Shown here: positions 28,474 through 62,193 of the stretch, piece by piece
How the letters are laid out: each line of letters opens with the position of its first letter
How positions within the stretch are numbered: the first letter of the stretch is position 1
NCBI GenBank assembly: GCA_964612105.1
Contig: CAZTEU010000003.1
Span: forward strand, 67,050 to 131,049
Direction of reading: 5' to 3'
Source of the DNA: an uncultured Gammaproteobacteria bacterium
GTDB lineage: Bacteria > Patescibacteriota > Patescibacteriia > Magasanikbacterales > UBA922
DNA: 64,000 nt
Translations under genes and position numbers: made by a program
Notes under the pieces: generated by a model
Seen by the model: only the letters and a program-made list of their open reading frames with translations
Database searches by the model: none
Told to the model about the DNA's origin: nothing

Positions 28474-28476
28474 AGT

Positions 28477-29811: not shown

Positions 29812-29814
29812 TAT

Positions 29815-42352: not shown

Positions 42353-43504
42353 ATGATAAAGACAAATAACAAAATATTATACGTAATTACACAAGGTGGT
42401 CCTTGGGGTGGTGCACAGAAATACGTATATACATTATCTAAAAACATACCCAATGGCATGGATGCTATTGTTGCTGTTGGAGAAAGCAACAGAAATCAAG
42501 ATCTACAAAAAAAATTAGTATCAAATAACATTGAGGTAATTAATCTTAAAAACCTGGAAAGAAATATTTCGATTGTTAAAGACTGGAAAACAATAGTGGA
42601 GCTTAGGAAATTATATAAAACTATAAAACCACACATTGTTCATCTTAACAGCTCTAAGGCTGGGGTTTTAGGAAGTGTTGCATCAATAGGACTTAAGGAT
42701 AAACCAAAAATTGTATATACAGTTCATGGGTGGGTTTTTAATGAACCAATGGGAAGTATTAGACAGATAATATATAAATTTGCAGAAAAAATTAGTGCTA
42801 CACTAAAGGACTCTATAATTACTTTGTCAGAATATGAAAAAAAGCAGGCTATTACTAAGTTGGGTATTAGTATAGAAAAAATACATAAAATACCAATCGG
42901 TGTTGCAAAACAAGACTATTTACCCAAAGATGAAGCTCGTTCAAAAATTATAAATACAGACTATAATCAGGATGAGGTTTTGATTGTTTCAATTGCAAAC
43001 GCTTTTAAGACAAAAGGATTAGACACTCTTATAAAGGCTACAGAAAAACTATTAACCAATAACATAAAAATCAGAGTGTTCATTATTGGTGATGGTCCTG
43101 AGCTTGCAAACCTTAAAAAATTATCTGCATCATTAGGTGTTAATAATTCAGTACACTTCTTAGGCTTTATAGAAAATGCATCAAACTTACTGATGGCTTT
43201 TGACCTGTTTGTTCTTCCATCAAAAAAAGAAGGGCTACCGTACGTAGCACTAGAAGCCAAGCAGGCGGGTGTGCCTATAATTACAACTGCAGTTGGTGGT
43301 TTACCAACTATTATAGAAAATAAAAAAAATGGCTTGTTAATTAAGCCAGGAAGCTCAGAGAATCTCGCAAATGCAATAAAATATGCATGCTCACATATGA
43401 ACGAAATGAAGAGTATGTCATCTACAGCAAAAGACGAATCTGAAAGTTATTCAGAACAAGATATGATTAGAAAAACTTATAATTTATACAATAAGCACCT
43501 CTAG
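42353..43504 (+). CDS. Glycosyltransferase family 4 (plus strand).
   Basis: N-terminal GGPWGGAQKYV and a C-terminal EGLPYVALEAKQAGVPIITTAVGGLP motif. Confidence 0.7.
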   Translation: MIKTNNKILYVITQGGPWGGAQKYVYTLSKNIPNGMDAIVAVGESNRNQDLQKKLVSNNIEVINLKNLERNISIVKDWKTIVELRKLYKTIKPHIVHLNSSKAGVLGSVASIGLKDKPKIVYTVHGWVFNEPMGSIRQIIYKFAEKISATLKDSIITLSEYEKKQAITKLGISIEKIHKIPIGVAKQDYLPKDEARSKIINTDYNQDEVLIVSIANAFKTKGLDTLIKATEKLLTNNIKIRVFIIGDGPELANLKKLSASLGVNNSVHFLGFIENASNLLMAFDLFVLPSKKEGLPYVALEAKQAGVPIITTAVGGLPTIIENKKNGLLIKPGSSENLANAIKYACSHMNEMKSMSSTAKDESESYSEQDMIRKTYNLYNKHL

Positions 43505-45516
43505 TTCTCAGTTGGTAGATATTCACCAACTATCTTTTTTCCTTCTTCATTAAACTTTACACCTTCATCCACAGCCCTCATTGTGGCTTCTTTAGCCAAG
43601 CCTGTCTGCCCCATCGTTTTATAGATTAATACGAGTCTCCACCAGCTCTCACTTATTTTTGGATTTAACTCTGTTGATTTTTCTATGGTGTTAATTGCCT
43701 CTTCTGCATTGTTTAACTGCATTTCAACACCAGCAAGAGTGTAGTAAAGCTGTTGTCTTTTTGGAGAATACTCTATTGCCTCCTCCATGGTTTTCTTTGC
43801 TTCTAGTAACATAGAAGGTTCTCTTGTAACACCAGTTATCATTTGTGAAAGTTGAGTCTGTTGTAAATGAATCCTAATATCACCGGGATGTAATCTTCTA
43901 TTATTATTCAATTCAGAATGAGCCAATCTAGCTAGTTTCACAGCTTTTTCACCATGACCATGAGTTACGTAATTTTTAAAGGTATTATTCATAGATCTTC
44001 CAAAGTCTATTCTCATGTCATCAATATGTGGAGTGTATATGCCTGTGGCATGTTCATATGCACTAACAACATCTTTGTTGTTGTATATTGACCTTATAAG
44101 ATCTAGAGTAGCCATATTAGCCCTAGCAGGGTACACATTTGTTATTAAGATAATACACCCGACACAAACCACAACCAATACTTGTACAAGTGAATCAGCA
44201 TGGAAACGAGTGTTTTCTGTTTCTTCTTTTTTGTTTATTAATGAGTTTATTAGTGCTAGAAAAAAGAAAAAGTAAATATATGATGTTGGATTTTCAAATA
44301 CAAACAATTGTTGAGTATAATGAAACACAAAATACCCTACAGCAGCTGCAAAAATATGTACATCTATTTTTTTTCTTACAAATGCACGCCATGCAAATAA
44401 AATTGGCACTACAAATAGTGCTAGATAAGCAAATAACCCTACTGTGCCTTGCACAGCGATTGCATTGATTGTTGCACTATGCGCATTGTCAAACCAAGTT
44501 TCAGTATAGCCAAATTTTAGCAGTTGGGGATTGTAATATTTATTAAAGGCATAATAGTAATTATTTGGACCCCATCCAAATACCGGACGCTCTTTCCAGG
44601 CATCCATTGCGATTGACCAAGCCATCAGACGTGGGTTGCTATTTTTATCAAGCTTAATATTTACAAGTCTGCCTACAGTTGGGATTTTTTGTACAAAACT
44701 GGAGCCTCTAAAGTAAAAAGAAGTTCCAAGCCCAAGAATTCCAACAATTAGTCCCGCAATAAAAATAGAACGTATAATACTATTTTTGTTAATGTTTTTA
44801 ACATATACCCAACCCATAGCTACCACCCCCAAGACAAATCCTATTAGTACCCCCCTGGTTCCACTTATTAAAAGACCAATAATTCCAATCAGGCCGCAGA
44901 TAATCGAATAATATTTCCAATTATTATTTTTCTCTTTTGCATATAGTAACCAACCAACCAGAGACAGAAATGCACCATATGCACCATAGTATATTGCATT
45001 TCCCAATGTAGCAGACACACGGTCAGAGCCTCTGTTGAGTAAGAACTCAGGACTAACTTTCTGTATCATTCCAATAATCATAACCATAGAACCAGCACCA
45101 AGAAATATCCTAAGTAAATATCTCCAGTCAGACCATTTCGTAAAAATAGAAGTCGCTACAAAGTAGTAGATCGCATAGTGACATATTGTAAAAAAACCTA
45201 ACATTCTCTCGTGATTGTCCCACAGGCTTTTGTAACTGTCTACACCAACTATAGTAGAGATCAAGAAACTTAGAAGATAAAAAATTACAGCAAGTGTAAT
45301 TGGTGTCTTCTTAATTGAGTATCTTTTTACGTCTCCCAAAAGTAGAAGAATATATACTCCAAGCATTATTAATACAACACTACGGAATATTAGTATCTTT
45401 GGAACTATGAAAGGGAAAATGAATTTGTCAGGAAGAATAATAAGAGGAATAAAGAAACTTAAAGCAATAGACCATTTTATTACTTGTTCTAATATTTTTC
45501 TCATAATTTTATTCAA
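43501..45516 (-). CDS. O-antigen ligase/polymerase-domain (Wzy_C) membrane protein fused to a C-terminal TPR domain.
   Basis: About 10 TM helices. GTRGVLIGFVLG and a FDNAHSATINAI loop are PF04932-like. The C-terminal roughly 200 aa are TPR-like repeats. Its stop overlaps the GT4 stop convergently by 4 bp. Confidence 0.5.
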   Translation of the reverse strand: MNKIMRKILEQVIKWSIALSFFIPLIILPDKFIFPFIVPKILIFRSVVLIMLGVYILLLLGDVKRYSIKKTPITLAVIFYLLSFLISTIVGVDSYKSLWDNHERMLGFFTICHYAIYYFVATSIFTKWSDWRYLLRIFLGAGSMVMIIGMIQKVSPEFLLNRGSDRVSATLGNAIYYGAYGAFLSLVGWLLYAKEKNNNWKYYSIICGLIGIIGLLISGTRGVLIGFVLGVVAMGWVYVKNINKNSIIRSIFIAGLIVGILGLGTSFYFRGSSFVQKIPTVGRLVNIKLDKNSNPRLMAWSIAMDAWKERPVFGWGPNNYYYAFNKYYNPQLLKFGYTETWFDNAHSATINAIAVQGTVGLFAYLALFVVPILFAWRAFVRKKIDVHIFAAAVGYFVFHYTQQLFVFENPTSYIYFFFFLALINSLINKKEETENTRFHADSLVQVLVVVCVGCIILITNVYPARANMATLDLIRSIYNNKDVVSAYEHATGIYTPHIDDMRIDFGRSMNNTFKNYVTHGHGEKAVKLARLAHSELNNNRRLHPGDIRIHLQQTQLSQMITGVTREPSMLLEAKKTMEEAIEYSPKRQQLYYTLAGVEMQLNNAEEAINTIEKSTELNPKISESWWRLVLIYKTMGQTGLAKEATMRAVDEGVKFNEEGKKIVGEYLPTEN

Positions 45517-46186
45517 TTATACTTCCCCACCTTTCTTGAAAAGCTTTGTTTTCTGGATATCTTTGTAGAAGTTCGCCTACAAATTCTTTGGTTTTTTCTA
45601 TTTGGTTTGTGTCTTCGTAATAACCTATAGCAGCCAATAATACATCTACATCTCTTTCTGTATTTTCTAGACCTTCAAGAAGCGTTTTTTCTGCGGAAAT
45701 ATTATTATCTAAATTATTTTTTTGTAATTTAGATAAGGTTATGTATAAGCTAGGATTAACAAGATTATTTTCAATGGCAAGATTGTAAAATTCTTCAGCT
45801 TTTACATAATTCTTTAGATTAACCCTGTATGTTTCAGCAATGTTTGTATAACCTAAAATATTTTGTGGATTAAGCACAATAGACTGCCTGTAAGCTAGTA
45901 TTGAATTGTCAAAATCACCAATCATGCTGTAAACATTTCCAACAGCAATCCATGATGTCCAGCTATCTGGAGTTTTTTCATATTTTTGCTTCGTGAGTTC
46001 TATATCATTCTCCATTCTTAGTACTATATCCTTGTCTATATCTTGAGGTATTTGTACATTATAGAACGGGTCATTAATTAACCTACTCATCTCATCAGAA
46101 TTCTTTTCCTTCAATAGATAAAATGCTGAGACTACAATCACTAGTAGAATAAGGATTATGGTTTTATTTCTTGTCTTTGGTTTCAT
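45509..46186 (-). CDS. TPR-repeat protein with an N-terminal membrane anchor.
   Basis: N-terminal hydrophobic helix, then TPR-like repeats (...AYRQSIVLNPQNILGY...). Confidence 0.6.
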   Translation of the reverse strand: MKPKTRNKTIILILLVIVVSAFYLLKEKNSDEMSRLINDPFYNVQIPQDIDKDIVLRMENDIELTKQKYEKTPDSWTSWIAVGNVYSMIGDFDNSILAYRQSIVLNPQNILGYTNIAETYRVNLKNYVKAEEFYNLAIENNLVNPSLYITLSKLQKNNLDNNISAEKTLLEGLENTERDVDVLLAAIGYYEDTNQIEKTKEFVGELLQRYPENKAFQERWGSIIE

Positions 46187-46238
46187 ATATATTATTAAAA
46201 CTACTCGTTCATAATAGCAAAAAAATCATTACAACACA

Positions 46239-46272
46239 AACCCCCCTCTGGGCATACGCCTAAAGGGGGGTT
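46239..46272 (-). terminator. GC-rich hairpin terminator downstream of the giant surface-protein gene.
   Basis: 9-bp stem AACCCCCCT/AGGGGGGTT with a 16-nt loop. On the minus strand it is followed by a U-rich stretch (UGUGUUGUAAUGAUUUUUUU). The stem's GC content is in sharp contrast to the AT-rich genome. Confidence 0.45.
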
Positions 46273-46329: not shown

Positions 46330-49300
46330 CTAAAGGCTAACTACGCTTGCTGTAGATGAGGTTGAGTTAAGACCTGATACTAGATAACCATTTACCCAGT
46401 CTTCTGTTGTGGTAGCGTGTCCGCCAGCACTACGATCTGACCAAATAAAGTCATCATTCGCATCTGCGTCTACTACGGTGGTAGTATCCATTAGAGAGTC
46501 TGCTTCTATGTGTGCGGCAGCATCACCAGCCATAACTGTTGAGATTGAGTCTCCAGATGAGGCTCCGCTCACAACACCACGAAGTATGTATGTCTTTGTA
46601 GCTCCGTCAGCTACTGTTCTTTCCTTAATGGTACCATTTCCAACTTCTCCAGTTGTTTCGTTAATTGTAGCCTGAAGGTATGAGAAGTTTTGACCTTGCG
46701 CTAGGGTTTCAGTAAACAACTGTACCTCGTTGTTTGAATCAGTAACATCATATAGATCTACTGAAGCAACGGTTACACTTGTTGTTGTAATACCGAATAC
46801 AAACTTAGCCAAGCCGATGTCACCATCAGATGCAGTAACTTTGAACTTGTACAAGTCAACTGTACCATTTGACAATGTGCTTCCAACTGAAAGTTTTGTA
46901 ACTGTTGGAAGTGCTTGATACATGTAGTGAGTTAGTCCTGTAGGAGCACTTGCACCTATGACCTCAGTTGTTCCAGAACCTGATTGGGCACCTTTAGCTG
47001 TAATGTCGCCAGCATTGTTGATCTTAAGACCAAGTCTGTGACCACCAACTGTTACGGCCTGTTGTGTACCAATACTGGACAAGTCTGCCTTCAAGTGAAG
47101 TTTGTGACCAGATGTATTGTCAATATCAACAATAAATGCTCCATCATCAAATTCAATTAATGGCTTTGTACTTGTAGGCACTGTTGATCCAACAATTACA
47201 CCTGCATCATCCTCGAAGTATAGTCTTGTATAGTCTGAGAATGAAGAACTGCTTGTGTCTGTTACGTTCATTGTTAGATAGATCTTATCAAGCTCTACAT
47301 CTTCTGTTGAAGTTGCATAGAAGTTGAATGTTGCTAGCTCAACACCTTTAGTTCCAGCTGCGAACAATCTTGCAGATGGGTTTGAGGCATCAAGACCAAC
47401 TTCAACTGTACCACCAGCAGAACCAATTGTAAGTGTTTGTCCAGCTGCAGTATCTATAACTTCAGTAACTGTATCACCAGTTGTAACACCACTAGCTGTA
47501 ACCCAGTTAGTAGTTGATACAGCAAATGTGTGGTTTGAGTTAACTCCTGTTACAGCACCACCAGCAACATCTGCTCTAAATACAGCTTTTACTTTCTTAC
47601 CAGCTTTAATAGTAAACTGATCAGATCCACTTAGGTTGTAAGTGAATGTTTCTTCGCCGTTTGCAGTTGCGTTGGATCCACTGTTTGTTTCTCCAAGAGC
47701 TTCTAGTGTTCCTGAACTGTCAAAACTATCTCCATCTTTGTCAACAAAGATTCGGATGTTTTGCATGTCGATTGTCTTAGCTGTTGAACCTGTACTGTCA
47801 GTAACTTTCACCTGAGTAACTTTAATATCCTCTGATGAACCTGAAGCATCGAATAGTACGTGAGCCACATCAACATCGTTGGTGCCGGCTGCAAGTGTTC
47901 TTGCTGCAGGAGTTGTTAGTGTTGTAATACGCAATGCACCGGATTTAACGGTCAATGTATTAGCACTAATAACAGCTTGTGGTAGGGCGTAAGTTCCTAA
48001 AGTAATTGTTTCGCTACTGCTTGAACCTTCAGCATCAAAGTTTGATGTGTTAGCCATGTCAATAGCAAGTGTTACTTGATCATCAGCAGATGCATCACTA
48101 CTTATATTACCTTTAGCAATAACAACTGTATCACCAACTGGTAATGTGAATGAATCTGTAGATGTAGCATAACCAACTAATCCACCACTTGTAACCTCAG
48201 TCAAGTCTACACCACTTGTAAGTGCTTTTCCATCTTTGGTGTACAAGACAATATTATCATACTCATCTGGGTCACCTGTAACAGTTGTACCTTTAACAAC
48301 AATGGTGTTAACAGTAACAGGCTCTCCTTGAACTTTAAAGTTCCAAGAGCCAAGTTCTACACCAGATGCGTTGTCAGGAACATTTCCTGCTTGTACATCA
48401 TTTGTCTTAGACACTGTTATTTTTCCTTGTGAAACAGTAACTGTGTTAGTTAATTCGTCAGCACTGTTTGTTGGGGTTGCGTAGTATCCATACTTAAGAT
48501 CTTTTACAAGAAGATCTGTTGTACGACGTAGATCAAGATCTATTGTTCTTGTAGATCCATCCACGATGTCACCGTAAACTGAGAAGCTCTTTGTAGCTCC
48601 TTTTTTAATCATACAACTGTCACCACAACCTGATAGGTCGAAGGTTACATATTTGTCTTTCATCATACCTGTTGCAACTGTGTTGCTCTGGTATGTAAGT
48701 TTCCAGTTTTGTACGTCATCGTTGTCAGCTGATCCACCGTTGTACAATCTTAGTTGTTCTACTTGGAAGTCATTTGTTGCAACCTGCAAATCAAGATTTG
48801 CAAAGTTTACTCCAGTATCACCAATTTGCTCGGTTACTGTACCAACTTGTGCACCTTCACTCAATGTGGCTGTTCCTAGTACAACACTTGCATTTGTCTG
48901 AACTGCATTTCCAACTAGTGGAAGAGTTCCAACAACAGTTGAATCTGTTGTAACTGACTGAAGTGCCAACTTTGGATAGTTACCTCCTGCTAGACCAGAA
49001 GCCATATCAGCAACAAGTGTGTATGACTTTGTTGTTCCTGCAGGAATGACAATATCTTGACCGAAGTTTACAATACTGTCAGAGTTTAGAGTCTTTCCAA
49101 GTGTATCAACAAGAAGACCTTCATTATCTACCATGTTAATTTTACTGAAATCTCCGTCAATTGATGGAGATCCGTTGCGTTTTACTTGCAAAGAATCAAT
49201 TGTAACATCACCACCTGTAGCAGTGAAGTTAACCTTTGTGAATGCAACTCGTGCTGCATTCTTCACAGCAAAAGTTCCTGCTGGAGTGTCAGATGCAAGA

Positions 49301-50079
49301 GCAACTGTCAAAGTTCCTGTTGAACCTGAGCTTGGGCTACTTGATCCTGAACTTGCTCCACCAGCCATTTGTGATGGGTTGTTTGCAACACTAGCTGATG
49401 TGACTGTTTCGCTTGCCATTGAAACACTAGCGAATACGCCTGCAGAAACTTCGCGGACGTCACCACTTGCAACACTTGAAAGTGTTCCGTCAACTTCTTT
49501 AAGTTCCCCGTCTACAACTTCGTAGACTTTAGCGTCACCAGCTTTTGTAACAAGCATTCCGTTGTGAGGTTTTGACTCAGAAACTTCTGAACCAACTGAG
49601 TAGTTAGCATCAAACACATCTGGAAGGTCGCGGACAAGTTTTGCCCAACCGCTTCCGTAAAGTGCTGCTGCAACTGCCTCACTAGCAATCTTGTGTTTCA
49701 TGTTGTTAGGTCCAACTGCATACACGTTTGGTGAAATTACAGTTTTAACTAAACGAGATCCTGGACGGTAGTTTACACCACCACCACTTGGATAGTTATC
49801 AACACAAGTGTTATCAATTACTTGTACTCCAGAATAGTCTGTGTACCAAGTTTTGTATACCTCCGCATTTGGGAAGTACATACGTTTCATATCTGGGTTA
49901 ACCAGATACACTGCTGAATTGTTAGCAACTTTGAACAAGTCACCTGAATTCAGTGTTGGACAAGTAGCGGCATTTGCTACCAATGGAACTAGAGCTGCTA
50001 CACCCATGCTCCACATAATGGTAAGAACCACTACTGACCACGTAAACGCATCCTTTGAGATTCGTAATACGTTGCTCAT
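46330..50079 (-). CDS. Giant secreted/cell-surface protein of 1249 aa, Thr/Ser/Gly/Val-rich with tandem beta-rich modules. Candidate S-layer or adhesin glycoprotein.
   Basis: N-terminal signal/anchor (WSVVVLTIMWSMGVAALVPLVANAA), a roughly 200-aa N-terminal domain with 3 Cys, then over 1000 aa with no Cys, about 30% Ser+Thr and many N-x-S/T sites. It has its own promoter and terminator. Confidence 0.6.
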   Translation of the reverse strand: MSNVLRISKDAFTWSVVVLTIMWSMGVAALVPLVANAATCPTLNSGDLFKVANNSAVYLVNPDMKRMYFPNAEVYKTWYTDYSGVQVIDNTCVDNYPSGGGVNYRPGSRLVKTVISPNVYAVGPNNMKHKIASEAVAAALYGSGWAKLVRDLPDVFDANYSVGSEVSESKPHNGMLVTKAGDAKVYEVVDGELKEVDGTLSSVASGDVREVSAGVFASVSMASETVTSASVANNPSQMAGGASSGSSSPSSGSTGTLTVALASDTPAGTFAVKNAARVAFTKVNFTATGGDVTIDSLQVKRNGSPSIDGDFSKINMVDNEGLLVDTLGKTLNSDSIVNFGQDIVIPAGTTKSYTLVADMASGLAGGNYPKLALQSVTTDSTVVGTLPLVGNAVQTNASVVLGTATLSEGAQVGTVTEQIGDTGVNFANLDLQVATNDFQVEQLRLYNGGSADNDDVQNWKLTYQSNTVATGMMKDKYVTFDLSGCGDSCMIKKGATKSFSVYGDIVDGSTRTIDLDLRRTTDLLVKDLKYGYYATPTNSADELTNTVTVSQGKITVSKTNDVQAGNVPDNASGVELGSWNFKVQGEPVTVNTIVVKGTTVTGDPDEYDNIVLYTKDGKALTSGVDLTEVTSGGLVGYATSTDSFTLPVGDTVVIAKGNISSDASADDQVTLAIDMANTSNFDAEGSSSSETITLGTYALPQAVISANTLTVKSGALRITTLTTPAARTLAAGTNDVDVAHVLFDASGSSEDIKVTQVKVTDSTGSTAKTIDMQNIRIFVDKDGDSFDSSGTLEALGETNSGSNATANGEETFTYNLSGSDQFTIKAGKKVKAVFRADVAGGAVTGVNSNHTFAVSTTNWVTASGVTTGDTVTEVIDTAAGQTLTIGSAGGTVEVGLDASNPSARLFAAGTKGVELATFNFYATSTEDVELDKIYLTMNVTDTSSSSFSDYTRLYFEDDAGVIVGSTVPTSTKPLIEFDDGAFIVDIDNTSGHKLHLKADLSSIGTQQAVTVGGHRLGLKINNAGDITAKGAQSGSGTTEVIGASAPTGLTHYMYQALPTVTKLSVGSTLSNGTVDLYKFKVTASDGDIGLAKFVFGITTTSVTVASVDLYDVTDSNNEVQLFTETLAQGQNFSYLQATINETTGEVGNGTIKERTVADGATKTYILRGVVSGASSGDSISTVMAGDAAAHIEADSLMDTTTVVDADANDDFIWSDRSAGGHATTTEDWVNGYLVSGLNSTSSTASVVSL

Positions 50080-50114
50080 AATTTATATCTTTGTCATTTA
50101 CCTAGCGCGCGTAC

Positions 50115-50143
50115 TTTATAAAGATGAGTACGGTCTATGTAAA
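50115..50143 (-). promoter_or_regulatory. Sigma70-type promoter of the giant surface-protein gene.
   Basis: Minus strand reads TTTACA, 17 nt, TATAAA, about 30-nt leader, ATG at 50079. Confidence 0.4.
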
Positions 50144-50160
50144 TAACTATTATCTACAGA

Positions 50161-50310
50161 CATGTAACGACTCGTATCGAGCCTCGACCTTGGGCTACAT
50201 GGTTGCCTCGACACACGAGGCCTGCTCCCATGTACTGTATGGCATTCTACCCTGAACCACTCTCGACCTCTACTACCAGAGGTTCAGGGCATTAGCCATA
50301 CAATATCCTG
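50161..50310. other. GC-enriched, highly structured intergenic element; candidate structured ncRNA. Its identity is unresolved.
   Basis: Local GC is about 50% against the roughly 33% background. A nested long hairpin spans 50236-50302, built from a perfect 9-bp stem CCCTGAACC/GGTTCAGGG inside an 8-bp stem TGTATGGC/GCCATACA. A second hairpin GCCTCG-ACACA-CGAGGC lies at 50205-50221. It lies upstream of the giant-gene promoter and outside any ORF. Confidence 0.2.
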
Positions 50311-50390
50311 GGAATGAATATTGTTGTGCTCTCCTTTATTGACAAGCACAGTTCTATCCCGACAAGTCGAGAAAGGGCTGTGTTTACCAA

Positions 50391-51692
50391 CTATTCTATG
50401 TCACTTTCATTATTTTCGCTCTCTACTGGAGCTTGTACAGGGTCTACCACTTCTTCCAATTCATTATTTATTTCTTTGGTCTTCTTAATAGCATCCTTTA
50501 CCTCAACAACAGCCTGAGCTGTCTCAGTATTAACCTCTTGAGCTTCTTGTGCTTTATGAATAGCATCAAGAAGATTGTTGTTCTCAACCAGCTCTTGAGC
50601 CTGCTGTATAATCTCCCCCGCTCTCTCTACTGTTTCATCGACCTTATCTACAACCTCCACTATCTTATCTTTTATATCTTCGAGATTCTCAGCTTCTTTG
50701 ACTTGATCTTTTTCTGAGTCAGTTGCCATTGTTGATGATGCCAAAAGAGTCTCTTTTAAATCCTCTAATACTTCTTCATTTATTTCACTTTCACTTGTAG
50801 TTTTCTCCACAGCCTCAGCGTCTGGCTTTATTTCATCTTTAATAGTGTCCTTTACTTCCTGTACTGATACAGACAATTCTGCAATTGTTTCAGCAACAAG
50901 CTCTGCAACATCCTCATTGGATGACTCACTGTCTTCTTTTTCCACATCCTCATCTAATTGTTTAACAACTTTTTCTATAACATCAAGCTCCGCAGCCTTC
51001 ACCAGTGATGTTGCCTCAGCAACTTCTTTCACCAAAGAACCTGTATCTGTCTCGTCATTACCCCCTTCTATTTCTTTAGTAACCTCAATTAATTCTTTTT
51101 TAATTTCCTGAGTAGCTTTTGTAAGATCTTTAGCTACGCTGACAGCTTCAGAGAGGCTGGTATTATTTACTTCTTTCGCGCTTTCCTTCGCAGACTCTAT
51201 AGATTTTTTGAGCTTTACTACAGTCTTCTGTGCTCGCTCTGCCTTGTCTTCGCCCTCGTTATTTTCAACTATTTTTTTTGTCTCTTCAGATCTACGTGAT
51301 GCAAATTCAAGATGAAGCTTAGTTTCTACAACCTTATCTCGTGAAACTGTAGCAAGTGCAACTTGAGTTTTTTCTGTAGCAATCTTTACTCCGTACAAAA
51401 CCTCGCCTGGTAAACTATCATATGAAGCATTTACCCCAACAATCCAACCACCAACCGTCATAATACTAATCATGATCATTGCCATAGCCGGACGAGCAGC
51501 ATGTGCAATAGATTCAGGAATAAACCAAGATACTAATTCTTTTGCTGGAACAGACCTCTTGGACTCAGTTACATTATTAGTTATTTGTCTCAAAAGACGG
51601 TTACGAGTGTTATCAACCCAAACATGGTCGGGTTTTAACCGGCCATTATAATCTTTCAAAGATTTAAGTTGTTCTATGAGTTGTTTACTCAT
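50391..51692 (-). CDS. Membrane-anchored acidic coiled-coil protein; putative anti-sigma factor partner (DUF5667-like architecture).
   Basis: About 65-aa cytoplasmic N-terminus, a single TM helix (AMAMIMISIMTVGGWIVGV), then about 340 aa of extremely E/K/D-rich helical sequence. It overlaps the sigma-factor gene by 8 bp. Confidence 0.45.
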   Translation of the reverse strand: MSKQLIEQLKSLKDYNGRLKPDHVWVDNTRNRLLRQITNNVTESKRSVPAKELVSWFIPESIAHAARPAMAMIMISIMTVGGWIVGVNASYDSLPGEVLYGVKIATEKTQVALATVSRDKVVETKLHLEFASRRSEETKKIVENNEGEDKAERAQKTVVKLKKSIESAKESAKEVNNTSLSEAVSVAKDLTKATQEIKKELIEVTKEIEGGNDETDTGSLVKEVAEATSLVKAAELDVIEKVVKQLDEDVEKEDSESSNEDVAELVAETIAELSVSVQEVKDTIKDEIKPDAEAVEKTTSESEINEEVLEDLKETLLASSTMATDSEKDQVKEAENLEDIKDKIVEVVDKVDETVERAGEIIQQAQELVENNNLLDAIHKAQEAQEVNTETAQAVVEVKDAIKKTKEINNELEEVVDPVQAPVESENNESDIE

Positions 51693-52266
51693 GTGAGTCT
51701 TGTGTGATTCTTTTTAATACTTTTAGTGCTCTGTGTAATGTAACTCGCACATTTGAACCAGACTTTTCAGTTATGTGAGCAATCTCAGATATAGACAAGT
51801 CATCCACATACCTGAGCACAATTACCTCTTGGTACTCATTTTTTAGCTTCTTAATCTGCTGAAGTAGAGCTTGTGTATTTTGATGTAGCTCTATCTCATT
51901 TATTAGAGTATTTTCACGAGCGTACTCTTTTACTTGATCCAGACTACACTCTTTGGTCTTGGCACGTTTTCTATAAACATCCACAACAGCATTACGCGCA
52001 ATTCGGTAGACTAAGCCACTAAAGCTTCTTGTTCTTTTGTTTGAATGATCTATTAAATAGTTCCACGTTTTGAGGAAGACTTCGCTTGTAATATCTTCAG
52101 CCTCTTCTCTATTTGATAGCTTCAGATAAACAAACCTATAAATTTTATCAACATACTTATCGTACAGCTCTGCGAAGGCATCCGGATCTCTCTTAGCTTG
52201 AGCACGATATATAAGTATTTGTTCACTAATATTTTTCCTCATAATAGAAGACGCAGAAGTTACCAA
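51685..52266 (-). CDS. RNA polymerase sigma-70-family (ECF-type) sigma factor.
   Basis: Region 2 (FAELYDKYVDKIYRFVYLKLSNREEAEDITSEVFLKTWNY) and a region-4 HTH (LSISEIAHITEKSGSNVRVTLHRALKVLK). The true start is probably the ATG at 52242 (MRKNISEQ); the track start is a TTG. Confidence 0.75.
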   Translation of the reverse strand: MVTSASSIMRKNISEQILIYRAQAKRDPDAFAELYDKYVDKIYRFVYLKLSNREEAEDITSEVFLKTWNYLIDHSNKRTRSFSGLVYRIARNAVVDVYRKRAKTKECSLDQVKEYARENTLINEIELHQNTQALLQQIKKLKNEYQEVIVLRYVDDLSISEIAHITEKSGSNVRVTLHRALKVLKRITQDSHE

Positions 52267-52696: not shown

Positions 52697-53014
52697 ATGA
52701 ATATAGAGGAAAAGGAAATTGTTAGATTATCTGTCTCAGAGGCAGCAAGATTGTTTGGAGTGAACGCTCAGACAATAAGACGTGCAATAAAAGACCAGGA
52801 AATTACCTACATTGTTGTGGGTGGAAGATATAAGATTAATTTTGAAAGTCTTGTGCGTTGGTCACAAAGAAAGACTACGGTGCAGAATAAAATGAATACT
52901 CGAGGAATTGGACAATATGTTGGAAAATGGAGAATTAAGAACACTCTTTATTCCCCAAGTAAAAAATCTGTTCCGAAAAAACCTGAGGATGATAATTCCT
53001 CAGAACAGAAATAA
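52697..53014 (+). CDS. Excisionase/MerR-superfamily HTH DNA-binding protein (HTH_17-like), 105 aa.
   Basis: LSVSEAARLFGVNAQTIRRAIKDQEITYIVVGGRYKI is the canonical excisionase-family HTH. The basic C-terminal tail is atypical. Confidence 0.6.
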   Translation: MNIEEKEIVRLSVSEAARLFGVNAQTIRRAIKDQEITYIVVGGRYKINFESLVRWSQRKTTVQNKMNTRGIGQYVGKWRIKNTLYSPSKKSVPKKPEDDNSSEQK

Positions 53015-53015
53015 T

Positions 53016-53037
53016 CCGCCTTCTGGCGGTTTTTTTT
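53016..53037 (+). terminator. Rho-independent terminator.
   Basis: CCGCC-TTCT-GGCGG hairpin followed by T8, 2 nt after the stop codon. Confidence 0.65.
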
Positions 53038-53049
53038 ATCACACTATCG

Positions 53050-53058
53050 TGGTATTAT
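53050..53058 (+). promoter_or_regulatory. Extended -10 promoter (TGgTATTAT) for the downstream membrane protein; leaderless.
   Basis: TGGTATTAT ends 6 nt before the ATG at 53065. No clear -35 element. Confidence 0.3.
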
Positions 53059-53064
53059 AGTGTT

Positions 53065-54918
53065 ATGAAATTCGTAGAAAAGTATCTCAATAGGCACCAT
53101 TTTTTTAATAGTCCACATAAATGGTTTTTTTCTTTTCTATCTTCTCCTATTCACTTTGCAGAACTGCACTACAAGAAAAAATATCATCTAAGCTTTGTTC
53201 ACGCAAAGAAATTGTTCTTCTTTGACATGGTTCTTTTATGTACTGTACTCGTCCTATCCTCACTTACTATATTTTGGTTTTCTTATGATCCTACTGTACT
53301 TGGTGATATTGGTTTGAACATATCATCTCCTCAATCTCGCATTGCGTCAGGTGAACATGTGGATTTTGCAATCAATTTTGAAAATACCAGTGGCTCATTG
53401 TTAGTTGATTCGTCAATTGCACTGCTACTCCCAGAAAGCTTTATCCTTGATATATCAAGTCTCTCAAAAAACTATCCTTTTTCTAATACTTCTAAATCTT
53501 TCAGCGTTGGAGATCTACATCCAGGCGCAAACGGAAAGATTACTCTGTCTGGATGGTTTTATGGTGAGCCGGAAATACAGGAACGAATTACCGCAAGACT
53601 TTCTTATTTACAAGAAAAGCGTGATGTAAGAGAATTTAAAGATGCTACAATATTGCAAACACCTAGAGGTTCGCTGATTAAGGCATCTATAAATATGCCT
53701 GACTCAATACTATCGTCAGGAGAAATTGATTTTAATATTAATCTATCAGGAGAAATTACAGATCAGATTGACTCTATATCACTTAATATATCAAATTCAA
53801 ACTTTAAACTGTCTTCACATTCAAAACCCTCGCAAGGATTAGTGGAAAAAGGGGTGTGGATAATTCCTATAGATGAAGGACAAACGAGTATAAATGCAAA
53901 AATGTCTGGAAAATTATCATATAGTGTAGTAAATAATCAACAAACTAGCACATACACAGTTACCCCAAAAATAGTTCTTCAAAATAAGCCTTTTCTACAA
54001 GTTCCAGTAACGAAGAGTCTTGGTGTAGTAAATCCAAAAATGTCTCTTTCTGGATTGTGGATAAGCGGACAAACTGCACATCCAGGTGATATAACTAAAT
54101 TAAAAATAAAGGTACAAAACACTGGACACATAAAGCTAGTGGATGGATCTATATCTTTTGATGTGCCAGATCAAGTAGATGTTGTGAAACTTATTGATAA
54201 TAATGTTGGCCTGTATAGCAACCAAACATATACTGTAACTGCAGGACACAACGCTGGACTCAAATCAATTGGTCCAGGAGAAATAAAAGAGGTCATTTTA
54301 GAGATACCTATTAAAAATAATATTTTAGAGGGAGAGAACATAGAAATAAAAATAGACCCTAAATTAGAGGCGCAAATTCCATCAATGTCTGGAACTAAGT
54401 ACAACACTCAGTCCAGCATTCCAGAAGTTAGAGTGTCTACAGATTTGGCACTTGGTGGCTCGCTTATGTACTACACGGGTGATGGAGAGCAAATAGGTAG
54501 AGGTCCGTTACCTCCACAAGTTGGAAAACAAACAACATACTGGGCAACAATCTCAGTTAAAAATACCACAAACAAACTAGAATATCTTCAATTTATAGCA
54601 GAATTATCAGATAGGGCAATCTGGCTAGACAAATCAAGTGTAAGTCATGGAAAAACGCTTCATTATGACAGTAAAACCCATTCTGTAACCTGGTCTCTTC
54701 CGGAGATGAGCACCCACGACATTGCTGGGATATATATGGGTATAGGCTATATCCCAACTCCTGAAGATATTGGAAATACACCTGTATTAATAAAACATAT
54801 TGCTACCCGAGGTGTTGATACTTTTGTAGATGAAAACATCAAAAAGACCTTATCATCAATAGACATATCACTAAAAGGTGACCAAAAAGCACAGAAAAGA
54901 GGGGTTGCTGTACAATAG
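53065..54918 (+). CDS. Hypothetical membrane-anchored extracellular protein with beta-rich repeats.
   Basis: Cytoplasmic N-terminus, one TM helix (MVLLCTVLVLSSLTIFWF), then about 540 aa hydrophilic and rich in S/T/N/G/I. No recognizable catalytic motif. Confidence 0.5.
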   Translation: MKFVEKYLNRHHFFNSPHKWFFSFLSSPIHFAELHYKKKYHLSFVHAKKLFFFDMVLLCTVLVLSSLTIFWFSYDPTVLGDIGLNISSPQSRIASGEHVDFAINFENTSGSLLVDSSIALLLPESFILDISSLSKNYPFSNTSKSFSVGDLHPGANGKITLSGWFYGEPEIQERITARLSYLQEKRDVREFKDATILQTPRGSLIKASINMPDSILSSGEIDFNINLSGEITDQIDSISLNISNSNFKLSSHSKPSQGLVEKGVWIIPIDEGQTSINAKMSGKLSYSVVNNQQTSTYTVTPKIVLQNKPFLQVPVTKSLGVVNPKMSLSGLWISGQTAHPGDITKLKIKVQNTGHIKLVDGSISFDVPDQVDVVKLIDNNVGLYSNQTYTVTAGHNAGLKSIGPGEIKEVILEIPIKNNILEGENIEIKIDPKLEAQIPSMSGTKYNTQSSIPEVRVSTDLALGGSLMYYTGDGEQIGRGPLPPQVGKQTTYWATISVKNTTNKLEYLQFIAELSDRAIWLDKSSVSHGKTLHYDSKTHSVTWSLPEMSTHDIAGIYMGIGYIPTPEDIGNTPVLIKHIATRGVDTFVDENIKKTLSSIDISLKGDQKAQKRGVAVQ

Positions 54919-58230: not shown

Positions 58231-59444
58231 AATTTCTTATACAGTGCTTCAATTGCACTCACATGATCTTCTGAATTATTCTTTCGTACAACTTCCTTAC
58301 TCAGCTTTAAGCCTCGTATCCTCCTTTTTTCTGACCCAGAAATGTACCATAATTTTATTTTTTTTGCAAGATCCGCAGGGTCATTTGGACTAACGAGCAT
58401 GTCTTTTGGAAGAAGCTCTGGTATGCCCCCTATCTTACTGGCCACAACTATTTTACCCATAGATTTTGCCTCTAGGATACTAAGAGGTGCGTTCTCATAC
58501 CATATTGACGGAGCCACCATAATACGTGCACTTTTCAAATAATTCACCAATTTATTTCCAGTCTGGAAACCAACCATCTTAACATTTGTAATTTTATCTT
58601 TTTTTATCTTATTTTTTAGTTCACTTTCTAGTGGACCAGTTCCAACTATTGTATGAGGAATGTCTGAGTTTAATTTTGCAGATTCTAATAGCACATCTAG
58701 ACCCTTCTCTTCCGAAAGCCTCCCAACAAACAACACCCTGTCCCCTTCCTTGTTTGAATATTTAAATCTGTCTGTATTAACAGGGTTTGTAATATGTACA
58801 AATTTCTTTCTATCCCATCCATGTTTAACACATAGATTAAGCATAAATTCACTTGGTGCAATAAATTTATCTATATACTTTTCATAGTACTTCATTATCT
58901 TATGATTCCAAATCATGGAAGCAACACTGACTGCACTTTGTACTCTACTATCTTTTACACACTTATTCCCTATACAAGACAAGTATAGCCCTTTAGCATC
59001 TTCCTCATGTACCTCTCCATGATGGAATAAACTGTAATTTGGGCATATTAACTTGTAGTCATGTAGGGTCATCACCACCTTAAGACCATATTTTTTCGCT
59101 ATTGGCAAAATAGATGGAGAAATATGATGATATATGTTATGAATATGCAAAACATTCGGTTTATACTCCCTAACTAAACGTTCGAATTGCTTTCTTGCTT
59201 GATTAGAATAAAAAAAATGAGTTAGCGCTATGGCTTTTTCTTTATATCCCAACTTACTTGGGTCTGAAAGATTAAAATAATCTACAAAATATTTTTTTTG
59301 AGGAGAGCTAAGAGATTCCTTTTGCTTGCATGAGAATGGAAATACCTCATGATTACGTTCTTTGAGCAAATCAGAAAGCTCCAACATATAGTTGGATGCC
59401 CCATCTCTCTTCCAGAAGTATTTGTGTGCTTGGACAATCTTCAT
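58227..59444 (-). CDS. Glycosyltransferase family 4.
   Basis: GT-B fold with a C-terminal APSIWYENAPLSILEAKSMGKIVVASKIGGIPE motif. Confidence 0.65.
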   Translation of the reverse strand: MKIVQAHKYFWKRDGASNYMLELSDLLKERNHEVFPFSCKQKESLSSPQKKYFVDYFNLSDPSKLGYKEKAIALTHFFYSNQARKQFERLVREYKPNVLHIHNIYHHISPSILPIAKKYGLKVVMTLHDYKLICPNYSLFHHGEVHEEDAKGLYLSCIGNKCVKDSRVQSAVSVASMIWNHKIMKYYEKYIDKFIAPSEFMLNLCVKHGWDRKKFVHITNPVNTDRFKYSNKEGDRVLFVGRLSEEKGLDVLLESAKLNSDIPHTIVGTGPLESELKNKIKKDKITNVKMVGFQTGNKLVNYLKSARIMVAPSIWYENAPLSILEAKSMGKIVVASKIGGIPELLPKDMLVSPNDPADLAKKIKLWYISGSEKRRIRGLKLSKEVVRKNNSEDHVSAIEALYKKL

Positions 59445-61988: not shown

Positions 61989-62193
61989 ATTTGGCGGTTT
62001 TTTATTTAGGTTTTACCCCGTGTCACTGATCACTTTTTGTAAAATGGTCAATGTTCGGGGCCCGGTCGCATGGATTGCATGCGACCGGGCGGAAACTAGA
62101 GCACTATCGTCCCGAAGGACATTAGATTTCATAGTACCCCCTCTGCGTATTCATTCGCGGAGTGGAGGGGGATTTTCCCGAGAGAAAACAAAG

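What the first reader, a model, noticed from the sequence alone, without database searches (positions are those of the whole stretch)
46330..50079. Giant Thr/Ser-rich secreted protein directly downstream of the glycosylation supercluster; candidate S-layer/adhesin glycoprotein substrate
The 1249-aa protein has an N-terminal signal/anchor, a Cys-containing roughly 200-aa head, then over 1000 residues with no Cys. This part is dominated by T/S/G/V/A/D/N, has tandem beta-strand-like modules and dozens of N-x-S/T sites. The gene has its own near-consensus promoter (50115-50143) and a GC-rich hairpin terminator (46239-46272), which suggests high, independent expression. Its position next to six PMT-like transferases, a Wzy_C+TPR protein and more than 11 GT4 enzymes makes it the obvious candidate target of an O-glycosylation system, or an S-layer protein.
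Basis: partly seen in the sequence, partly recalled or inferred. Interest (0 to 1): 0.65.

Follow-up and report, generated by a model that had tools for sequence, protein, structure and literature searches.

The report
Candidate S-layer protein of a CPR bacterium
The 1249-residue gene most likely encodes the surface-layer (outer coat) protein of an uncultured ultra-small Magasanikbacteria-type bacterium, a protein kind already predicted for this group, and it sits in a strongly conserved gene cassette that suggests, but does not prove, that the coat protein is sugar-modified.

Summary
The ORF is real: 46330-50079, minus strand, 1249 aa. It encodes a Sec-type signal peptide, a 200-aa head of three repeats, a short Ser/Gly linker and six beta-sandwich domains (AlphaFold pLDDT 91-93).

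Residues 257-1237 align collinearly with the roughly 1150-1200-aa peptidoglycan-binding (PGBD) plus Ig-like proteins of Paceibacteria. A 2024 preprint predicted proteins of that kind to be the six-Ig-domain Patescibacterial S-layer protein, and reported homologues among the most highly expressed secreted proteins. So the S-layer reading is well supported, but it is not new.

Several details of the finding are wrong:
- Cys485 and Cys489 exist.
- There are only 18 N-x-S/T sites, which is not an enrichment.
- The proposed promoter lies inside a conserved structured RNA leader.

The glycoprotein-substrate idea is plausible but unproven. The gene is followed by a terminator, a small TPR protein and a Wzy_C+TPR protein. 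This is the sgsE-wsaA-wsaB layout of Geobacillus S-layer glycosylation.

Wzy_C adjacency tracks the anchor type: 21 of 21 head-type loci have it and 0 of 18 PGBD-type loci do. That fits equally well with Wzy_C building the wall polymer that the head binds.

Two things are new here: the anchor swap and its link to the gene neighbourhood, and an RNA leader absent from Rfam.

The parts
46330..50079 (-). Gene for the 1249-aa candidate S-layer protein (the end coordinate includes the stop codon)
   Evidence: ORF. More than 300 full-length homologues of 1170-1300 aa in CPR bacteria.
49969..50079 (-). Signal peptide, residues 1-37: basic n-region, roughly 20-aa hydrophobic core, conserved A-x-A cleavage motif
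   Evidence: Hydropathy and sequence. Conserved columns T20, W23, G26, P32 and AxA. Low pLDDT. No signal-peptide predictor was available.
49375..49968 (-). Head domain, residues 38-235: three repeats of about 60 aa (three strands plus a helix each), with Cys40/Cys92. Proposed cell-wall anchoring module
   Evidence: AlphaFold secondary structure. No Pfam or NCBIfam hit. The domain alone hits 4032 representative clusters, fused to proteases, propellers, cohesin and others. It is replaced by PG_binding_1 in Paceibacteria homologues.
49315..49374 (-). Ser/Gly-rich linker, residues 236-255 (GGASSGSSSPSSGSTG)
   Evidence: pLDDT below 50. Variable length (5-33 aa) and composition across the family, median S+T 30%.
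46333..49314 (-). Six consecutive beta-sandwich (Ig-like) domains: D1 256-400, D2 401-550, D3 551-712, D4 713-887, D5 888-1055, D6 1056-1249. Conserved C-terminal motif DDFIWSD...DW.NGYLVSGL
   Evidence: AlphaFold models with pLDDT 91.0 and 93.2, pTM 0.86 for D4-D6. Foldseek gives only tandem Ig-like arrays, including the H. volcanii S-layer 7ptp_A. Collinear alignment with PGBD-type proteins.
50080..50305 (-). Conserved structured 5' leader RNA. E1 long hairpin 50233-50305, E2 motif CAAGGUCGAG plus hairpin 50169-50192, E3 13-bp helix 50093-50105 / 50135-50147 enclosing hairpin 50110-50132
   Evidence: Alignment of 22 loci. E1 folds in about 27 of the 28 loci where its 3' arm was found, with unrelated inner-stem sequences. 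MFE -80.4 kcal/mol, z -5.0. E3 covariation. Covariance model R1 hits once per Magasanik-type locus, always just 5' of the ATG. No Rfam family.
50317..50345 (-). Candidate sigma-70-like promoter (TTGTCA-17-AATATT) that would start transcription at the base of E1. Weak evidence
   Evidence: Consensus scan, 9 of 12 matches, no more frequent than in shuffles. Its position relative to E1 is inferred.
46231..46272 (-). Intrinsic terminator between the S-layer gene and the TPR gene
   Evidence: -26.4 kcal/mol, z -4.3, U-rich tail. Conserved in 11 of 11 related loci.
45509..46186 (-). Small membrane-anchored TPR protein (225 aa). It is the most widely conserved neighbour of the family
   Evidence: Pfam TPR. 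One N-terminal TM segment with a basic N-terminus. Present downstream in 17 of 21 head-type and 18 of 18 PGBD-type loci.
43501..45516 (-). Wzy_C (O-antigen-ligase-like) polytopic membrane protein with a C-terminal TPR domain (671 aa). Candidate O-oligosaccharyltransferase, or glycopolymer ligase/polymerase
   Evidence: Pfam Wzy_C 9e-20 plus TPR. WaaL 7tpg_B 7e-7. Within 6 kb downstream in 21 of 21 head-type loci.
42353..43504 (+). Convergent GT4 glycosyltransferase, a conserved member of the cassette
   Evidence: Pfam. Present in 18 of 21 head-type loci.
50391..52266 (-). ECF sigma factor (51685-52266) and a single-pass DUF5667 membrane protein (50391-51692) with anti-sigma-like topology, directly upstream
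   Evidence: Pfam and NCBIfam. Topology. Sigma was found upstream in every head-type locus with enough upstream flank; DUF5667 in most of them by tblastn, and in others by the precomputed Pfam annotation.
52697..54918 (+). Divergent HTH_17 (excisionase-type) regulator (52697-53014) and a 617-aa DUF11/CLIPPER membrane protein (53065-54918), conserved next to the cassette
   Evidence: Synteny.

Best explanation
The gene encodes the main surface-layer protein of a Candidatus Magasanikbacteria-type (CPR/Patescibacteria) bacterium.

Proposed mechanism:
- The protein is exported by Sec and its signal peptide is cut after A-x-A (inferred).
- The N-terminal three-repeat head holds it on the cell wall. 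This is inferred from modular domain fusions and from its replacement by a peptidoglycan-binding domain in relatives.
- A flexible Ser/Gly linker connects the head to six rigid Ig-like domains. These form the lattice, by homology with proteins of the kind a preprint models as hexagonal lattices. This was not tested here.
- The mRNA is monocistronic. It starts with a long conserved structured leader of about 225 nt and ends at a conserved terminator (both shown). This fits a stable, abundant transcript (inferred).
- An ECF sigma factor and a DUF5667 membrane protein sit just upstream and may regulate the gene (inferred).
- The small TPR protein and the Wzy_C+TPR protein just downstream most likely transfer a lipid-linked glycan, built by the surrounding glycosyltransferases, onto Ser/Thr of this protein. 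This is by analogy with WsaA/WsaB and WsfB.

I put the S-layer identity at about 0.75-0.8 and the glycosylation step at about 0.4-0.45. The confidence of 0.65 given for this explanation is for the whole picture.
For: Architecture: signal peptide, head, linker and six beta-sandwich domains. The mature protein is acidic (pI 4.4), has only four Cys, and has no Pfam match.

Family:
- More than 300 homologues of nearly constant length, conserved end to end.
- The body aligns collinearly with PG_binding_1-type proteins of Kaiserbacteria and Minisyncoccia (E 5e-68 and 1e-68).
- The preprint 10.1101/2024.05.28.596244 describes a six-Ig-domain Patescibacterial S-layer protein of 1131-1274 aa. It models it as p6 pyramids and notes homologues among the five most expressed secreted proteins.
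- Kuroda et al. 2024 report such PGBD and Ig-like proteins as top-expressed.
- Foldseek finds the H. volcanii S-layer protein 7ptp_A among the Ig-array hits.

Anchor: the head is fused to unrelated extracytoplasmic modules and is swapped for PG_binding_1 in relatives.

Expression signals: leader and terminator.

Glycosylation:
- Wzy_C lies within 6 kb in 21 of 21 head-type loci, including Portnoy-, Komeili- and Buchananbacteria.
- The layout equals sgsE-wsaA(TPR)-wsaB(Wzy_C) and WsfB (Wzy_C with C-terminal TPR).
- The window holds 11 GT4, 4 GT2, 5 PMT_2 and sugar-nucleotide genes.
Against: - There are no experimental data for this organism, and no lattice prediction was run.
- Identity with the preprint's accessions could not be verified. 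Only a chain of homology and matching lengths and architecture link them.
- Fold matches are generic Ig arrays with TM about 0.2.
- N-x-S/T, D-S/T-[AILVMT] and S/T triplets are no more frequent than composition predicts.
- The linker is not consistently S/T-rich across the family.
- PGBD-type homologues lack adjacent Wzy_C, GT4 and PMT_2 genes, 0 of 18. Glycosylation genes are therefore not a universal partner of the family.
- The side of the membrane on which the Wzy_C TPR domain lies could not be determined.
Confidence: 0.65

Rival explanations
1. The protein is the S-layer protein, but the adjacent Wzy_C+TPR, GT4 and related genes do not glycosylate it. Instead they build or attach a secondary cell-wall glycopolymer that is the ligand of the three-repeat head. 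This would parallel SLH domains binding pyruvylated wall polymer, or CWB2 binding PS-II. Relatives that anchor directly to peptidoglycan through PG_binding_1 do not need these genes next door.
For: Perfect association of anchor type with Wzy_C adjacency: head-type 21 of 21, PGBD-type 0 of 18, Fisher p 1.6e-11. This includes Portnoybacteria, a Parcubacteria-group lineage like the PGBD-type Kaiserbacteria by NCBI naming. The head is a modular domain shared by many other secreted proteins, as expected of a wall-polymer-binding module. There are two UDP-glucose dehydrogenase genes, suggesting an acidic polymer. No glycosylation motif is enriched in the protein. Wzy_C proteins also include polymerases and ligases, and the best solved match is WaaL.
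Against: The small-TPR plus Wzy_C(+TPR) arrangement directly after an S-layer gene is the one described for S-layer O-oligosaccharyltransferases. No LCP ligase, Wzx flippase or ABC exporter was seen among the window ORFs scanned (three to four ORFs were not scanned or gave no hit). The correlation is not corrected for phylogeny. The two readings are not mutually exclusive.
Confidence: 0.3
2. The protein is a host-attachment adhesin or fibril of an episymbiotic CPR cell rather than a lattice-forming S-layer protein.
For: Top fold matches include adhesins and pilins built of Ig-like arrays: PrgB, FnBPA, ClfB, BcpA and antigen I/II. Kuroda et al. interpreted the PGBD-type relatives as possible host-attachment proteins.
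Against: Length and domain number are almost invariant, and the sequence is conserved end to end across classes. Adhesins usually vary in repeat number and evolve fast. There is no LPXTG or other C-terminal anchor in the sequence. Each locus carries one copy in a cassette conserved across CPR lineages carrying different NCBI names. Relatives are among the most abundant transcripts, and proteins of this kind are modelled as p6 lattices.
Confidence: 0.1
3. The S-layer protein is glycosylated, but by the PMT_2 (GT-C) enzymes paired with small GT2 polyprenyl-phosphate-sugar synthases. This would resemble actinobacterial protein O-mannosylation during Sec export. The Wzy_C protein would not be involved.
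For: Five PMT_2 proteins, two of which also hit PF02366 PMT. GT2/PMT_2 gene pairs lie at 26325-28473 and 28477-30513. The target is Ser/Thr-rich and Sec-exported.
Against: PMT_2 genes are next to the S-layer gene in only some related loci, whereas Wzy_C is always there. The best NCBIfam matches are ArnT- and Agl23-like and fall far below cut-offs, so lipid or polymer acceptors are equally possible.
Confidence: 0.15

Closest known systems
Six-Ig-domain Patescibacterial S-layer protein predicted in bioRxiv 10.1101/2024.05.28.596244 (Nealson-, Doudna-, Kaiser-, Kazan-, Parcubacteria proteins of 1131-1274 aa)
   Same: Signal peptide, six consecutive Ig-like domains and the same length class. The body is homologous to PGBD-type Kaiserbacteria and Minisyncoccia proteins. 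Relatives are very highly expressed.
   Different: Here the N-terminal anchor is an undescribed three-repeat head instead of PG_binding_1. The gene also sits in a sigma/DUF5667 ... TPR/Wzy_C/GT4 cassette that is absent from PGBD-type loci. Whether the preprint's Doudnabacteria and Kazan entries are head-type could not be checked.
Geobacillus stearothermophilus SgsE with WsaA/WsaB, and Paenibacillus alvei SpaA with WsfB (S-layer glycoproteins and their slg loci)
   Same: A monocistronic S-layer gene lies close to a glycosylation cluster. A small TPR ORF is followed by a Wzy_C membrane protein, and a TPR domain is fused to the C-terminus as in WsfB. An asparagine-synthase homologue is present, like wsfA.
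   Different: There is no sequence similarity between the S-layer proteins and no SLH domain. No Wzm/Wzt exporter was seen in the window. Glycosylation is unproven here.
Bacillus anthracis Sap/EA1 and G. stearothermophilus SbsB (SLH anchor followed by about six Ig-like or beta-sandwich assembly domains; from my own knowledge)
   Same: The same overall plan: signal peptide, a three-repeat wall anchor of about 170-200 aa, then about six beta-sandwich domains.
   Different: The anchor repeats here are strand-strand-strand-helix units, not helical SLH motifs, and there is no Pfam SLH hit. The resemblance is analogy, not homology.
Haloferax volcanii S-layer glycoprotein csg (PDB 7ptp)
   Same: Six Ig-like domains. 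It is a Foldseek hit with E 4e-6 and probability 1.0. The preprint also stresses the resemblance.
   Different: TM-score is only 0.20 and sequence identity 12%. csg is an archaeal protein with a C-terminal lipid anchor and N-glycosylation (my own knowledge). Sequons are not enriched here.

Membership tests
Patescibacterial six-Ig-domain S-layer protein family (bioRxiv 2024.05.28.596244) | Secreted protein with six consecutive Ig-like assembly domains, about 1130-1275 aa | tested here: met
   Six beta-sandwich domains in AlphaFold models with pLDDT 91-93. 1249 aa with a signal peptide.
Patescibacterial six-Ig-domain S-layer protein family (bioRxiv 2024.05.28.596244) | Sequence homology to the named members (A0A1G2EN61, A0A1F5NRV7, A0A0G1WWP5, A0A1F4NSF7, GMX59286.1) | tested here: inconclusive
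   Collinear homology to PGBD-type Kaiserbacteria and Minisyncoccia proteins of the same lengths. None of the listed accessions could be retrieved or matched.
Patescibacterial six-Ig-domain S-layer protein family (bioRxiv 2024.05.28.596244) | Forms a p6 two-dimensional lattice | not testable with these tools
   No multimer prediction was available, and there is no imaging for this organism.
Patescibacterial six-Ig-domain S-layer protein family (bioRxiv 2024.05.28.596244) | Among the most abundant transcripts or proteins | not testable with these tools
   Reported only for Paceibacteria relatives. Here there are only indirect signals: a structured leader and a strong terminator.
Gram-positive S-layer glycoprotein system (SgsE/WsaA/WsaB, SpaA/WsfB) | Wzy_C-domain membrane protein encoded with the S-layer gene or slg locus | tested here: met
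   Pfam Wzy_C 9.2e-20. Adjacent in 21 of 21 head-type loci.
Gram-positive S-layer glycoprotein system (SgsE/WsaA/WsaB, SpaA/WsfB) | TPR motif fused to the transferase or in the ORF just upstream of it | tested here: met
   Both are present: a 225-aa TPR ORF, and a C-terminal TPR on the Wzy_C protein.
Gram-positive S-layer glycoprotein system (SgsE/WsaA/WsaB, SpaA/WsfB) | Glycan covalently O-linked to Ser, Thr or Tyr of the S-layer protein | not testable with these tools
   Needs glycoproteomics. Motif counts are uninformative.
SLH-anchored S-layer proteins (Sap, EA1, SbsB) | Three SLH motifs (PF00395) at the N-terminus | tested here: not met
   No SLH or any other Pfam hit in the target or in 13 homologues. 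The head repeats contain beta strands.
Sortase-anchored Ig-array adhesins (MSCRAMM or pilin type) | C-terminal LPXTG sorting signal with a hydrophobic tail | tested here: not met
   The C-terminus reads ...NGYLVSGLNSTSSTASVVSL, with no LPXTG and no TM segment.
N-glycosylated archaeal-type S-layer glycoprotein (csg-like) | Enrichment and use of N-x-S/T sequons | tested here: not met
   18 observed against 15.2 +/- 3.2 expected. Actual use cannot be tested.
Any Rfam family (for the 5' leader) | Match to a curated covariance model | tested here: not met
   No hit at gathering threshold in the window. No relevant hit at E<=10 in 50000-50450.

The most novel reading that the evidence does not exclude
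The three-repeat head and the invariably adjacent small-TPR / Wzy_C+TPR / GT4 genes form a previously undescribed S-layer anchoring or glycosylation system of CPR bacteria. It would be a non-SLH counterpart of the SLH-wall-polymer pair. The head would be a new, very widespread wall-glycopolymer-binding module (about 4000 protein clusters) that targets many secreted CPR proteins to the surface. In addition, the roughly 225-nt leader would be a new cis-regulatory or stabilising RNA dedicated to the S-layer gene.
Probability: 0.3. Interest if true: 0.7.

Novelty: new member of a known kind. Interest (0 to 1): 0.5.

Why it matters
CPR/Patescibacteria make up a large share of bacterial diversity, yet their envelope is known almost only from images. 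Naming the coat protein, its wall anchor and the genes that travel with it gives concrete targets for several uses:
- metaproteomics;
- cryo-ET interpretation;
- host-attachment studies;
- phage-receptor work.

The anchor swap (three-repeat head versus peptidoglycan-binding domain) co-varies with the presence of a Wzy_C cassette. This yields a directly testable question: is the cassette a protein O-glycosylation machine, or the maker of the anchor's ligand?

The leader RNA adds an uncatalogued structured RNA tied to one abundant envelope gene.

For the protein itself the result is mostly confirmatory. This kind of S-layer protein has already been predicted for the phylum.

Tried and rejected
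- Pfam, NCBIfam and PDB sequence searches of the target gave nothing.
- Self-BLASTP found no internal sequence repeats.
- Foldseek against PDB with both half-models returned only generic Ig-like arrays with TM about 0.2. No specific family emerged and nothing informative was found about the head.
- Two search for related loci attempts with diverse alignments failed for lack of a conserved peptide stretch.
- A look-up of cluster members did not recover the preprint's accessions.
- Literature searches for DUF5667 and for O-antigen ligase in CPR returned nothing.
I found no conserved sigma-70 or ECF-type promoter upstream of E1 by eye.
- Counting N- and O-glycosylation motifs gave no enrichment.
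- Crude hydropathy could not settle the topology of the Wzy_C TPR domain.
- The conserved 260-300-aa protein upstream of PGBD-type genes is not a DUF5667 homologue.
- I considered that the 56.6% GC end of the window was an assembly chimera. I think this unlikely, because a Dicty_CTDC-repeat gene lies a few kb from the cassette, on the same side, in a related genome too.

Full report
**1. The observation**

The window has about 34% GC and carries no tRNA or Rfam hit. ORF 46330..50079 on the minus strand encodes 1249 aa.

Composition is T 12.0, V 11.0, S 10.2, G 9.7, A 9.5, D 7.8 and N 5.6%. Cys occurs at residues 40, 92, 485 and 489. N-x-S/T occurs 18 times, against 15.2 +/- 3.2 in shuffles. 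So the '>1000 residues without Cys' and 'dozens of sequons' statements are wrong, and the sequon count is only what the composition gives.

The N-terminus is MSNVLRISKDAFTWSVVVLTIMWSMGVAALVPLVANA|ATCP. It has a basic start, a hydrophobic core and a family-conserved A-x-A. I read it as a Sec signal peptide; no predictor was available. The mature protein has 1212 aa, a mass of 125.5 kDa and pI 4.4.

**2. Anatomy**

Two AlphaFold models built on a 109-sequence alignment are confident: residues 1-720 with pLDDT 91.0, and residues 700-1249 with pLDDT 93.2 and pTM 0.86. They show:
- a disordered signal peptide;
- a head (38-235) made of three units of about 60 aa, each three strands plus a helix;
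- a disordered Ser/Gly linker (236-255);
- six beta-sandwich domains (D1 256-400, D2 401-550, D3 551-712, D4 713-887, D5 888-1055, D6 1056-1249).

The domains are not detectable as sequence repeats.

Foldseek against PDB returns only tandem Ig-like arrays at TM about 0.2. These include integrin legs, PrgB, FnBPA, ClfB, BcpA and antigen I/II, and at rank 12 the Haloferax volcanii S-layer protein 7ptp_A. Nothing matches in Pfam, NCBIfam or PDB sequences.

**3. Family**

The protein has more than 300 full-length homologues of almost constant length (about 1170-1300 aa), conserved end to end. All are annotated as hypothetical. They come from Magasanik-, Portnoy-, Komeili- and Buchananbacteria and from unnamed CPR MAGs. 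The closest are 55-65% identical Magasanikbacteria proteins, so the window is from that lineage.

Searching with the Portnoybacteria member reaches a much larger set of roughly 1130-1250-aa proteins of Kaiser-, Sung-, Ryan-, Pacebacteria and Minisyncoccia. These align over about 85% of their length and carry PF01471 PG_binding_1 at the N-terminus. Direct BLASTP shows that target residues 257-1237 are collinear with these proteins (E 5e-68 and 1e-68). The head has no counterpart in them. So this is one family with two alternative N-terminal modules.

**4. What is already known**

[quoted passage not shown] It is modelled as hexagonal (p6) pyramids and has numerous homologues across Patescibacterial classes. 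The supplement lists proteins of 1131-1274 aa, and notes that homologues were among the five most highly expressed signal-peptide genes in two cultured-enrichment Paceibacteria.

The expression study (Kuroda et al. 2024, PMC10936435) indeed reports PGBD- and Ig-like-containing proteins of similar structure among the top-expressed genes.

I could not match accessions, and the afdb50 library was unavailable. Membership therefore rests on architecture, length and the homology chain. I consider it very likely. The S-layer assignment is thus supported, but not original.

**5. The head**

Used alone, the head hits 4032 representative clusters, 2931 of them at E<=1e-10. It usually lies right after a signal peptide, in proteins of many sizes. 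Ten carriers with other architectures combine it with:
- PD40 and PQQ propellers;
- a trypsin-like protease;
- cohesin plus CarboxypepD_reg;
- fn3;
- an archaeal-type S-layer domain.

A module that is shared by unrelated secreted proteins, and that is interchangeable with a peptidoglycan-binding domain in one protein family, is best read as a cell-surface anchor. This is an inference. The ligand is unknown.

**6. Neighbourhood**

The window around the gene holds 11 GT4-like, 4 GT2 and 5 PMT_2 proteins. It also holds a Wzy_C+TPR protein, a second weak Wzy_C, two UDP-glucose dehydrogenases, GDP-mannose dehydratase and other sugar-nucleotide enzymes, methyltransferases and an asparagine-synthase homologue.

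Across 38 genome loci plus four looked-up contigs, one order recurs in essentially every locus with enough flank. This includes the distant Portnoy-, Komeili- and Buchananbacteria. The order is:
- HTH_17 (divergent);
- ECF sigma;
- DUF5667 single-pass protein;
- target;
- small TPR protein;
- one or two Wzy_C(+TPR) proteins;
- convergent GT4.

PMT_2 genes are adjacent in only some loci.

In 82 PGBD-type loci the gene is instead preceded by an unrelated 260-300-aa protein with a weak HTH. It is followed by the small TPR protein, and no Wzy_C, GT4 or PMT_2 lies within 8 kb.

Counting non-redundant loci with at least 6 kb downstream gives:
- Wzy_C within 6 kb: 21 of 21 head-type and 0 of 18 PGBD-type loci (Fisher p 1.6e-11, not phylogeny-corrected);
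- small TPR gene present: 17 of 21 and 18 of 18.

**7. Expression signals**

The GC-rich hairpin after the stop codon is real (-26.4 kcal/mol, z -4.3, U-rich tail). Related loci all have an equivalent terminator (11 of 11).

- E1 is a long hairpin. Its outer stem is AUACUGURYGGC / GCCAUACAGUAU, with G.U variation only on the 5' side. Its inner stem differs completely between loci yet always pairs.
- E2 is the CAAAGGUCGAG motif followed by a variable hairpin.
- E3 is a 13-bp helix about 25-70 nt before the ATG. Its cells are 83% paired against 60 +/- 2% in shuffles, with 0 of 500 shuffles reaching that value. Its covariation score is 0.72, against at most 0.22 in slid registers.

The whole leader folds at -80.4 kcal/mol, z -5.0.

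A covariance model of E2-E3 finds exactly one hit per Magasanik-type locus, always abutting the start codon. Eight of these hits are in loci outside the seed. There are none elsewhere in the window, and none in Portnoy-, Komeili-, Buchanan- or PGBD-type loci. Rfam has no such family.

A weak promoter candidate (50345-50317) would start transcription at the base of E1. I could not confirm it by conservation. From my own knowledge, long structured 5' UTRs are typical of S-layer mRNAs.

**8. Mechanism and its rivals**

Best reading: a Sec-exported S-layer protein, wall-anchored by the head, that forms its lattice through D1-D6 and is expressed from a stable monocistronic mRNA.

On glycosylation, the review PMC2943079 states that:
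- the S-layer O-oligosaccharyltransferases WsaB and WsfB carry Wzy_C;
- WsfB and PglL have a C-terminal TPR;
- wsaA, just upstream of wsaB, is a small TPR ORF;
- sgsE is monocistronic and close to its slg cluster;
- wsfA is an asparagine-synthase homologue.

That is the layout seen here, and it is the main argument for an O-glycosylated protein.

Against it: no motif is enriched, the PGBD-type relatives lack the cassette, and anchor type and cassette co-vary perfectly. That co-variation suggests the cassette may instead make or attach the glycopolymer that the head binds. The two readings can both be true.

An adhesin reading is unlikely, given the invariant length, the conserved cassette and the expression data for relatives.

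**9. Verdict**

The finding is real and its main interpretation (S-layer) is right, but already anticipated in the literature. The glycoprotein-substrate claim is a reasonable, untested hypothesis with a serious rival. Several descriptive details were wrong.

The new elements are the head/PGBD anchor swap and its link to the Wzy_C cassette, the wide distribution of the head domain, and the leader RNA.

Noticed in passing
window 50080-50305 (-): A conserved structured leader RNA of about 225 nt (E1 hairpin, E2 CAAAGGUCGAG motif, E3 helix) lies immediately 5' of the S-layer gene in Magasanikbacteria-type loci. It has strong covariation and is absent from Rfam. Its function is unknown; it may stabilise the mRNA or act as a cis-regulator.
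   Followed up: yes
window 49375-49968 (-) and proteins P0121-P0260: The three-repeat head domain is an uncatalogued module found in about 4000 protein clusters. It is fused to proteases, beta-propellers, cohesin, fn3 and an archaeal S-layer domain. Its fold class and ligand are unknown.
   Followed up: partly
window 62001-64000: GC jumps to 56.6%, against about 34% elsewhere. The segment encodes a Dicty_CTDC (Cys-rich) repeat protein (62194-63888, -). A related Magasanikbacteria genome also has a Dicty_CTDC gene a few kb from the cassette on the same side (L001 545-3994), so this is probably not a chimera.
   Followed up: partly
window 52697-54918 (+): An excisionase-type HTH_17 gene and a 617-aa DUF11/CLIPPER membrane protein lie divergent from the sigma gene. 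Both are conserved in most Magasanik-type loci. The DUF11 protein weakly hits an NCBIfam 'putative S-layer protein' model, so it may be a second envelope component.
   Followed up: partly
window 50391-52266 (-): The ECF sigma factor's best NCBIfam match is the BldN family, below cut-off. It is paired with a DUF5667 single-pass protein that has a long acidic coiled-coil-like ectodomain. No paper in the searched library mentions DUF5667.
   Followed up: partly
window 26325-30513 (-): Two back-to-back pairs of a small GT2 (232-244 aa) next to a PMT_2 GT-C protein. This looks like polyprenyl-phosphate-sugar synthase plus extracytoplasmic transferase modules. The acceptor is unknown.
   Followed up: no
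window 56254-61988 (-): A GHL15 glycosyl-hydrolase-like protein with FG-GAP repeats (56254-58230), two GT4 genes, and a second, weak Wzy_C-like protein (60513-61988; 30.6 bits against a cut-off of 31.7).
   Followed up: no
window 24449-26323 (-): An asparagine-synthase homologue lies inside the glycosylation cluster. The P. alvei S-layer glycosylation locus has the same oddity (wsfA).
   Followed up: no
L045-L126 (PGBD-type loci), about 600-900 nt upstream of the S-layer gene: PGBD-type S-layer genes are preceded by a conserved unknown 260-300-aa protein with a weak C-terminal DeoR-like HTH, and by a long intergenic gap. That gap may hold a different leader; covariance model R1 does not hit it.
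   Followed up: partly
L007, L008, L011, L012, L015 and other loci: Many TPA MAG records that carry this CPR cassette are titled 'uncultured Gammaproteobacteria bacterium'. This appears to be a mislabel.
   Followed up: no
window 8380-10143 (-): A 587-aa ORF inside the sugar cluster has no Pfam match at all.
   Followed up: no
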